Source of the DNA: Octopus vulgaris
Taxonomy: Eukaryota
Reading direction: 5' to 3'
Assembly: GCA_951406725.2 (NCBI GenBank)
Contig: OX597829.1
Location: 19,282,001 to 19,346,000, forward strand
Length of the DNA: 64,000 bases
Shown here: one piece after another, positions 4,345 through 5,260 of the stretch
Layout: the number at the start of each line of letters is the position of its first letter
Position numbering within the stretch: the first letter of the stretch is position 1
Position numbers and translations under genes: made by a program
Notes under the pieces: model-generated
The model's database searches: none
Told to the model about the DNA's origin: nothing
The model's input: only the letters and a program-made list of their open reading frames with translations

Positions 4345-5260
4345 ATAATTTCAACAATTGAGGGTAAAATTAATTAATTATTAATCAATTTCACCAAGTA
4401 TTCAGTATGAGGGTAAAATTAATTAATTATTAATCAATTTCACCAAGTATTCAGTATGTAAAGGGACCATTTAGCTGATCTAGAAACGTACGTTCTCAAA
4501 TAACCTTCGCAATTGTGATTTTTTTAATGTTTTTACCCCCATACCTTCGTGGGCTATTTTGAGTAAGCACTATCTGAGAGAAATTTTCTTTAAGTATTAG
4601 AATTTGGCTAAAAAAATTTTTTTTGGCTGCTATTTCTAATGAGTTCAGTATGTGGCAAAGTAATTTATTTTACTAAGCCCTTTATAAAATGTAATATTTT
4701 GAATTCGCCTTAAATGGTCCCTTTACATACTGAATACTTGGTGAAATTGATTAATAATTAATTAATTTTACCCTCAATTGTTGAAATTATAATTCATTTC
4801 TCTCTGTTTAATGCTTCGGTTTTCACGGATAAAATTATGGTGTTTGCTAGGTTAGCCCACGTGGGTGGAAAGGGGAGGGCAGAAATTCTTCGCTTGCATA
4901 TTTTGAATTTGTTGGCACTGTTAGTCTGAACGGATCTTCGGAGGTGAAAAGTCGCCAAAAGGGTATGCTCCTACTTTCAGTGTTTACAAATCCGAATTAA
5001 GGAATTTTGGGCTGACGAAAGAAATGTCGAATTGTATTTGGCTGATCTAGAAACGTACGTTCTCAAATAACCTTCGCAATTGTGATTTTTTTAATGTTTT
5101 TACCCCCATACCTTCGTGGGCTAATTTGAGTAAGCACTATCTGAGAGAAATTTTCTTTAAGTATTAGAATTTGGCTAAAAAAATTTTTTTTTTGGCTGCT
5201 ATTTCTAATGAGTTCAGTATGTGGCAAAGTAATTTATTTTACTAAGCCCTTTATAAAATA
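4345..5260 (+). mobile_element. Penelope-like pseudo-LTR / retrozyme-like non-coding element in (TA)n
   Basis: Direct repeat 4474-4690 = 5041-5259; inverted copy 4346-4473 of 4711-4791; hammerhead motif at 5006-5067; (TA)n on both sides. Confidence 0.7.
5006..5067 (+). ncRNA. Type I hammerhead ribozyme motif
   Basis: tttggg-CTGACGA-[..gtcgaat tgt atttggc..]-GAAAC-gtac-GTT-ctcaaa. Stem I is 6 bp, the stem III loop is palindromic, and the base of stem II is mismatched. Confidence 0.6.

What the first reader, a model, noticed from the sequence alone, without database searches (positions are those of the whole stretch)
4345..5260. 567-nt ribozyme-delimited unit in tandem-plus-inverted arrangement (retrozyme/pLTR-like)
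Seen: the GAAACGTACGTT cleavage half occurs twice, ending at 4494 and 5061 (567 nt apart) within a ~217-bp near-identical direct repeat. The 5' end is an inverted copy of internal 4711-4791 with a 49-bp tandem slip. There is no ORF, and (TA)n lies on both sides. Established: partial tandem plus inverted 5' copy is the Penelope insertion signature. Inference: reverse transcription of a multimeric or circular ~567-nt RNA; near-identity suggests a recent event.
Basis: partly seen in the sequence, partly recalled or inferred. Interest (0 to 1): 0.72.

Follow-up and report, generated by a model that had tools for sequence, protein, structure and literature searches.

The report
Young hammerhead retrozyme with Penelope footprint
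This is one young copy of a 567-base, protein-free repeat found at hundreds of places in this animal genome; it carries a hammerhead ribozyme motif predicted to cut its RNA, and its two-armed insertions nearly always begin at two fixed points, one per arm, which suggests that a borrowed Penelope-type enzyme likely copies a single RNA, possibly a circle, into both DNA strands.

Summary
Observation confirmed. Window 4344-5262 is one insertion of a dispersed non-coding family (539 exact hits to a 22-nt ribozyme motif). The 567-nt unit runs between predicted cleavage sites; only the second junction has a complete type I hammerhead. None of 58 sampled loci joins a coding Penelope-like element (PLE), so it is neither an ordinary pLTR nor a local duplication. 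Copies sit in (TA)n as tandems, often two-armed. Arms end at unit position ~203 or ~297; 42 of 44 classifiable two-armed insertions use each site once. Arms of one insertion differ by ~1%, against 8.6% between loci, so both usually copy one RNA variant. Three collinear non-coding sister families (50-70% identity) keep the ribozyme, with compensatory stem I changes. Best reading: a non-LTR retrozyme moved in trans by PLE RT/endonuclease, primed on both target strands from an uncleaved multimer or circle. Cleavage, circular RNA and the helper PLE are not shown. Retrozymes as non-autonomous PLEs are in print, and this scan noted the same two-armed, two-start pattern for other families in this genome. 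New member of a known kind.

The parts
4320..4343 (.). Left (TA)n target tract; it is also the end of a different, older repeat at about 4095-4320
   Evidence: sequence
4344..4473 (-). Inverted arm: unit positions 297 to 217, starting at the long ('tail') start site
   Evidence: 100% complementary to 4711-4791 (I1/I2, L001)
4359..4458 (-). 49-nt perfect tandem duplication in the inverted arm (inferred RT slip; it spans the last hairpin of the 3' domain)
   Evidence: period 49, 100%; hairpin
4469..4472 (.). ATTT shared by both arms at the inversion junction (microhomology)
   Evidence: sequence
4469..4500 (+). Truncated ribozyme junction: end of stem II, GAAA, palindromic stem III, GUU site (after 4494), stem I 3' strand; no CUGACGA half
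   Evidence: one search finds the only CTGANGA core at 5012
4495..5061 (+). 567-nt unit between predicted cleavage sites; 34% GC; strongly folded
   Evidence: (z -5.2)
4600..4791 (+). Conserved 3' domain of hairpins holding both predicted RT start sites: short at about 4697 (unit 203), long at 4791 (unit 297); 94-nt tail between them
5006..5067 (+). Complete type I hammerhead motif: stem I 5006-5011/5062-5067, CUGACGA 5012-5018, long stem II with an A-A mismatch at its base, GAAA 5050-5053, one-pair stem III with palindromic loop, predicted cut after GUU 5061
5062..5262 (+). Partial second unit ending at the short start site and merging into TA repeats
5259..5273 (.). Right (TA)n target tract; no target-site duplication can be read
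   Evidence: sequence
52920..53260 (.). Separate short two-armed insertion of a diverged sister family (short-site arm on -, long-site arm on +, fold-back junction, TA on both sides)

Best explanation
The locus is one young insertion of a dispersed, non-coding, hammerhead-bearing 567-nt repeat family with the Penelope insertion footprint, and it is likely a non-LTR retrozyme copied in trans by the RT/GIY-YIG protein of a Penelope-like element. Inferred cycle: (1) tandem copies are transcribed; (2) the ribozyme, probably as a dimer through its palindromic stem III, cuts slowly to unit length and the unit may be ligated into a circle; (3) a PLE protein binds the folded 3' domain and cuts both strands of a (TA)n tract; (4) one strand primes at unit position ~203 and the other at ~297 of the same RNA; (5) both cDNAs run back through the intact ribozyme junction for up to five units and are joined head to head by short microhomology or fold-back. 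In the window the short-site cDNA ran about 790 nt; the long-site cDNA ran 81 nt with a 49-nt slip. Shown: copy number, lack of ORF, architecture, fixed ends, one-of-each rule, arm identity, ribozyme covariation. Inferred: transcription, cleavage, circle (about 55% against an uncleaved multimer), the helper protein.
For: 539 exact motif copies, control 0; 159 matches from 40 scored of 1890 candidates, with head-to-tail arrays. 0 of 58 pattern-picked loci have an arm continuing into a PLE ORF; the PLE fragments in 3 of them lie 0.9 kb or more away, beyond TA tracts. Ends: of 38 two-armed insertions in that set, 33 are long+short, 2 long+long, 0 short+short, 3 unclassifiable; in the BLAST-picked set 9 of 12 are long+short and 3 unclassifiable; binomial p 3.7e-8 for 33/35 and 1.1e-10 for 42/44. 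Flanks are >=70% TA in 89 of 116 and 30 of 38. Within an insertion, same-strand units differ at 265/28,610 and opposite arms at 259/25,888 sites, against a median 8.6% to other loci. 138 junction crossings were counted, 15 of 16 apparent stops at position 1 also continue through the junction, and one arm (L010) stops at the cut site. Inversion junctions overlap by 1-9 nt in 24 of 48. Stem I pairs 1-4 are paired in 46, 45, 45 and 42 of 46 distinct motifs, with different letters per family. Coding PLEs with long open RT + GIY-YIG frames, variant hammerheads, TA targets and two ends about 32 nt apart exist in the genome. One locus joins this family to a coding PLE's end within one TA-flanked insert. 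A purified PLE protein extends both strands and starts at two internal sites that bound the tail (PMC11167929).
Against: No cleavage or circular RNA was shown. The motif departs from the optimal core (GUU site, A-A at the base of stem II, one-pair stem III), Rfam misses it, and only 1 of 9 predicted frog retrozyme dimers cleaved in vitro (bioRxiv 2026.07.22.740005). The window copy has one complete ribozyme only. No cognate coding partner was found: a profile of this family and one sister does not hit the pLTRs of the two coding families examined, and PMC3846280 reports no cross-mobilisation between PLE families in a rotifer. The chimeric locus can also be a later deletion at a 4-nt microhomology. 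Exceptions to a single template exist: L079 switches haplotype mid-array, and the arms of L085 and L111 differ. Pattern-picked loci must span the junction once, which biases against arms that stop at the cut site. Arm identity could also come from one source locus per cell, or from conversion between arms. 19 of 48 junctions show a gap rather than microhomology. The antisense strand also folds better than shuffles.
Confidence: 0.8

Rival explanations
1. Same PLE-driven insertion, but the template is an uncleaved linear multimer read from genomic arrays; the ribozyme is weak or only trims ends, and no circle is involved.
For: PAc insertion in vitro did not need ribozyme cleavage and used unprocessed RNA (PMC11167929). 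The core is suboptimal. L079 is a haplotype mosaic. 114 of 128 arm tallies are under two units.
Against: Stem I is kept by compensatory change in four families. The unit folds with its 5' end paired to the ribozyme's 5' strand. Arms reach 3-5 units of one haplotype, whereas most possible source loci hold under two units. Known retrozymes accumulate as circles (PMC7229834).
Confidence: 0.4
2. Ordinary pLTR fragments: 5'-truncated ends of a coding PLE whose body was missed.
For: Same footprint as coding PLEs (PMC8557442, PMC3846280). Only two coding families were compared in depth, of 14,802 first-look candidates for one endonuclease query.
Against: 0 of 58 loci continue into an ORF. Upstream of the ribozyme every long arm continues into the next unit. 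None of 20 and 30 sister-family loci joins an ORF either (nearby fragments in L114, L123 and L162 are separate).
Confidence: 0.05
3. A satellite or fold-back DNA element spread by DNA-level duplication and recombination, or an assembly artefact.
For: Tandem arrays and inverted arms in microsatellites can be misassembled or expanded by unequal crossover (model cited in bioRxiv 2026.07.22.740005).
Against: Dispersal over many contigs, two fixed 3' ends with variable 5' ends, the one-of-each rule, ribozyme covariation, and presence in independent public runs under four organism labels.
Confidence: 0.03
4. Two independent RNA molecules prime the two strands, and the long+short rule reflects an asymmetric protein complex rather than one shared RNA.
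For: L085 and L111 carry arms of different variants; two long+long cases exist. A cell expressing one source locus would give matching arms anyway.
Against: Opposite arms differ by 1.0% while co-active subfamilies differ by 8.6%.
Confidence: 0.2

Closest known systems
Metazoan non-LTR retrozymes (Cervera and de la Pena 2020, PMC7229834; abstract, passages, sections 14, 15, 17 read)
   Same: Non-coding tandem units with a type I hammerhead, low GC, strong fold, co-existence with PLEs bearing variant hammerheads; weak stem III with a palindromic tetraloop as in axolotl HHR_Amex1, which works as a dimer.
   Different: 567 nt against about 170-400 nt; long stem II; cleavage and circles not shown here. 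The searched text of that paper has no mention of inverted arms, target sites or cephalopods.
Animal retrozymes as non-autonomous PLE sequences (Li, Clavereau, Pollet, bioRxiv 10.64898/2026.07.22.740005; parts 1-3 of 5 read, supplements closed)
   Same: Proposes PLE origin and PLE-driven mobilisation; unit range 51-972 bp includes 567.
   Different: There nearly every frog family is sister to a PLE pLTR; here four families are homologous to each other and no coding sister was found. The parts read give no insertion-junction analysis.
EN+ Penelope-like elements: Penelope/Poseidon PAc, Neptune, Naiad (PMC11167929 parts 1-2 of 4; PMC8557442 and PMC3846280 passages)
   Same: Partial tandems, inverted 5'-truncated arm, tail at one end only, (TA)n bias, two internal RT start sites, hammerhead in the terminal repeat.
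   Different: No ORF; tail 94 nt against 30-40 nt (about 32 nt in the two coding families here); multi-unit arms.
Non-autonomous Chlamys PLEs such as MRC1 (PMC8557442 passage)
   Same: Non-coding, pLTR-forming, multi-copy head-to-tail insertions.
   Different: [quoted passage not shown]

Membership tests
Non-LTR retrozyme | Type I hammerhead motif in the unit | tested here: met
   Complete motif 5006-5067; stem I covariation; core departures GUU and A-A noted; not detected by Rfam
Non-LTR retrozyme | Head-to-tail tandem units, many genomic copies | tested here: met
   arms up to five units
Non-LTR retrozyme | No coding capacity, GC under 45% | tested here: met
   (34% GC)
Non-LTR retrozyme | Unit length | tested here: met
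   567 nt: above the 170-400 nt of PMC7229834, inside the 51-972 bp of bioRxiv 2026.07.22.740005
Non-LTR retrozyme | Two consecutive complete ribozymes ('active' copy criterion of Li et al.) | tested here: not met
   The window copy has one complete motif. Other family copies meet it, e.g. L054, L079, L105, so this concerns the copy, not the family
Non-LTR retrozyme | Self-cleavage | not testable with these tools
   needs in vitro transcription
Non-LTR retrozyme | Expressed as unit-length linear and circular RNA | tested here: inconclusive
   Only assembled contigs of runs guessed to be RNA were available; contigs crossing the junction also arise from tandem DNA
Autonomous PLE / ordinary pLTR | RT + GIY-YIG ORF joined to the repeat | tested here: not met
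   0 of 58 loci; one chimera with a different PLE's 3' end
Autonomous PLE / ordinary pLTR | Partial tandem plus inverted 5'-truncated arm | tested here: met
   38 of 58 and 12 of 19 insertions two-armed
Autonomous PLE / ordinary pLTR | Tail at one end only (two RT start sites) | tested here: met
   42 of 44 classifiable; tail 94 nt
Autonomous PLE / ordinary pLTR | AT-rich or (TA)n target | tested here: met
   89 of 116 and 30 of 38 flanks
Non-autonomous derivative of a named PLE | Sequence homology to the pLTR of a coding family | tested here: inconclusive
   No profile hit to the two coding families examined; a 60-nt 70% match to one (E 0.004, A/T runs); other coding families not enumerated

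The most novel reading that the evidence does not exclude
The element belongs to an old clade of protein-free circular-RNA parasites (at least four families, 50-70% identical, same layout and fold) that has evolved as its own lineage without a coding parent. Its 3' domain offers two similar hairpin-ACCCT-AT-rich sites 94 nt apart, and a PLE RT dimer primes both cut strands on one circle, one site each. Hundreds of young insertions would then be a genomic read-out of how Penelope elements make both strands, and evidence for rolling-circle reverse transcription of retrozymes.
Probability: 0.35. Interest if true: 0.65.

Novelty: new member of a known kind. Interest (0 to 1): 0.38.

Why it matters
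That PLEs mobilise animal retrozymes has been argued from co-occurrence and pLTR similarity. This family adds insertion-level support: TA targets, inverted arms and two fixed start sites. The near-strict one-short, one-long rule with matching arms turns the known 'tail at one end' into a testable model of two-strand priming on one RNA, a step PMC11167929 leaves unvalidated. The qualitative signature is in print, and this scan recorded it for other families in the same genome, so this finding adds counts, a 94-nt tail and a sister clade rather than a new system.

Tried and rejected
Rfam found no hammerhead; the motif was read by hand and by covariation. Expression: no RNA holder listed on record. 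Four runs guessed to be RNA hold the unit in contigs, and X7 contigs cross the 5061/4495 junction, but contigs cannot show strand or ends, tandem DNA gives the same junction, and no silent control stretch was laid; not used as evidence. Empty site: none among the 15 joints shown of 423 in four other runs; undecided. Cognate coding partner: followed through the chimera (family B), a neighbour's endonuclease (family D), flanking fragments and two loose-end motifs (one led to sister family F, one to an unrelated AT-rich site); none matched. A shared ACCCTT motif at the long ends of D and of the non-coding families is too short to count. A Pfam accession recalled for a PLE domain is not in the library. 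PDB search with the family B frame gave 0. No host gene was identified: 3 window frames had no Pfam hit. The one-of-each rule in coding families could not be tested well with +/-1.5 kb loci: D gave 2 long+short and 1 long+long; B's two-armed loci were long+short, but the search favoured long ends and several are repeats of one array. Rows left out: L015 and the second cluster of L097 ran off their loci; L098 was classed one-armed by the script but reads short+long by eye; L097 and L098 were excluded from the within-locus counts. Literature: 7 searches showed no cephalopod retrozyme paper and no count of the long/short rule; the library lacks most subscription papers, and bioRxiv supplements could not be seen. 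The organism was not determined here; earlier scan notes call it an octopus.

Full report
Observation. GAAACGTACGTT ends at 4494 and 5061. The direct repeat covers 4469-4693 and 5036-5262; 4344-4473 is a perfect inverted copy of 4711-4791 with a 49-nt duplication. There is no ORF, and TA tracts flank the element. Only the second junction holds a whole type I hammerhead: stem I 5006-5011/5062-5067, CUGACGA, a long stem II with an A-A mismatch at its base, GAAA, a one-pair stem III and a GUU site. The ten bases across stem III are a perfect palindrome (duplex -11.6 kcal/mol), like the amphibian motifs that cleave as dimers (PMC7229834 section 15). Rfam misses the motif. The 567-nt unit folds well below shuffles (z -5.2). 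As circles, five family monomers give z -5.4 to -10 against -1.8 for one flank control, with 12 shuffles each; the antisense strand gives -3.7 to -7.4.

Family. A genome search scored 40 of 1890 candidates and gave 159 matches, including arrays of full units. A 22-nt motif across the junction has 539 exact matches and its reversed control none. The first 100 listed matches, on two contigs, form 58 loci, all fetched. None continues into a PLE ORF; PLE fragments in 3 loci lie 0.9 kb or more away, beyond TA tracts.

Ends. Arms end at unit position ~203 (short) or ~297 (long) and merge into (TA)n; flanks are at least 70% TA in 89 of 116 and 30 of 38 cases. Of 38 two-armed insertions in the pattern set, 33 have one long and one short end, 2 have two long ends, none has two short ends, and 3 could not be classed; in the BLAST set 9 of 12 are long+short and 3 unclassed. 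Against independent choice p is 1.1e-10 for 42 of 44. Either arm can be the longer (18 against 15; 4 against 5). The window fits: long site on the inverted arm, short site on the direct arm. A tail on one end only is described for PLEs at 30-40 nt (PMC8557442; PMC3846280) and corresponds to two internal RT start sites of a protein that cuts and extends both strands (PMC11167929). Here the tail is 94 nt.

Template. Units within an insertion differ at 0.9% of sites and opposite arms at 1.0%, whereas the median distance to other loci is 8.6% and to the nearest locus 0.8%. Several subfamilies are thus young together, yet both arms of an insertion usually come from one variant. Exceptions: L079 switches haplotype mid-array, and the arms of L085 and L111 differ. 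Arms cross the ribozyme junction (138 crossings, plus 15 short ones), and one arm stops at the predicted cut (the sampling favours crossings). The template is therefore a circle or an uncleaved multimer, not a cleaved linear monomer. Fourteen of 128 arm tallies reach two or more units. Inversion junctions share 1-9 nt in 24 of 48, are blunt in 5 and show a gap in 19.

Sister families. Flanks led to non-coding families C, F and G, collinear with the window family A: identity A-C 57%, A-F 61%, A-G 50%, C-F 70%. Stem I changes in sequence but stays paired (GAG/CUC, CCAUG/CAUGG, ACUGUG/CACAGU, CUACG/CGUAG), and stem III stays palindromic. C and F show the same two ends; only the short end was seen for G. 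The 3' domain folds into conserved hairpins (37 pairs, 4 with two-sided changes, 16 sequences); each start site follows a hairpin, an ACCCT-like motif and an AT-rich stretch. These are predictions on related sequences without a shuffle control. A further sister copy, also short+long, lies at window 52920-53260.

Helper. [quoted passage not shown] Both have variant hammerhead-like motifs, TA targets and two ends about 32 nt apart. Neither pLTR is detectably homologous to A or C. One insertion joins A, 7 nt past the cut site, to B's 3' end; this fits a template switch or a later deletion. The helper is not identified.

Mechanism and confidence. Non-autonomous, PLE-mobilised retrozyme: 0.8. Both strands primed on one RNA, one site each: about 0.7. 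Circle rather than multimer: about 0.55. Ribozyme activity is inferred from covariation only; 8 of 9 predicted frog dimers failed to cleave. Expression was not established.

Comparison. It works like a PLE insertion but is not a coding PLE. It meets the sequence-level features of non-LTR retrozymes (PMC7229834; bioRxiv 10.64898/2026.07.22.740005); cleavage and circles are untested. Seven searches showed no cephalopod retrozyme paper or count of the long/short rule, within a partial library. The scan's notes already report two-armed, two-start retrozymes of other unit lengths in this genome; none matched this sequence. I reached the two-start reading before that look-up (notes). Verdict: real, new member of a known kind, interest 0.38.

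Noticed in passing
window 52920-53260: Short two-armed insertion of a further sister family, short+long ends, palindromic fold-back junction, no ribozyme left.
   Followed up: partly
window 4095-4320: A different multi-copy repeat between TA tracts, whose TA end is the target of this insertion; also next to sister-family copies in L154 and L158. It holds a CTGAAGA...GTC stretch that may be a variant hammerhead.
   Followed up: no
L054 2974-6065 (G000:C11:52.98 Mb): Chimera: 3' end of coding PLE family B joined at a 4-nt microhomology to family A just past the predicted cut site.
   Followed up: partly
L188 (G000:C1:70.85 Mb): 3' UTR of coding family D runs into the pLTR and ORF start of family B, a chimera between two coding PLE families.
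   Followed up: no
L170-L199; L051: Coding families D and B carry hammerhead-like motifs with U at core position 3 (U3-A8 in D) and a CCGG palindromic stem III; D has very many near-identical copies with open frames.
   Followed up: partly
L079 (G000:C1:213.67 Mb): Five-unit arm that switches between two subfamily haplotypes mid-array; the other arm matches the inner haplotype.
   Followed up: partly
L010 2065 (G000:C26:5.69 Mb): The only arm seen that stops exactly at the predicted cleavage site, joined to unrelated DNA; it may record a cleaved 5' end.
   Followed up: no
L123, L135, L147, L168: Members of these families insert repeatedly into the TA tracts at the ends of earlier PLE or retrozyme copies, building nested clusters.
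   Followed up: no
G000:C28:6.39-6.42 Mb (L035, L040, L041, L043, L052, L053): A roughly 8.9-kb segment with a two-armed family B copy is repeated at least four times in tandem.
   Followed up: no
L155 1842-2096: Another long-stem-II hammerhead motif (stem I UGG/CCA) in an inverted pair.
   Followed up: no
window 2425-3162: 730-nt CAA/CAG repeat, next to a 190-aa open frame at 1044-1613 without Pfam hit; possibly a poly-Q exon.
   Followed up: no
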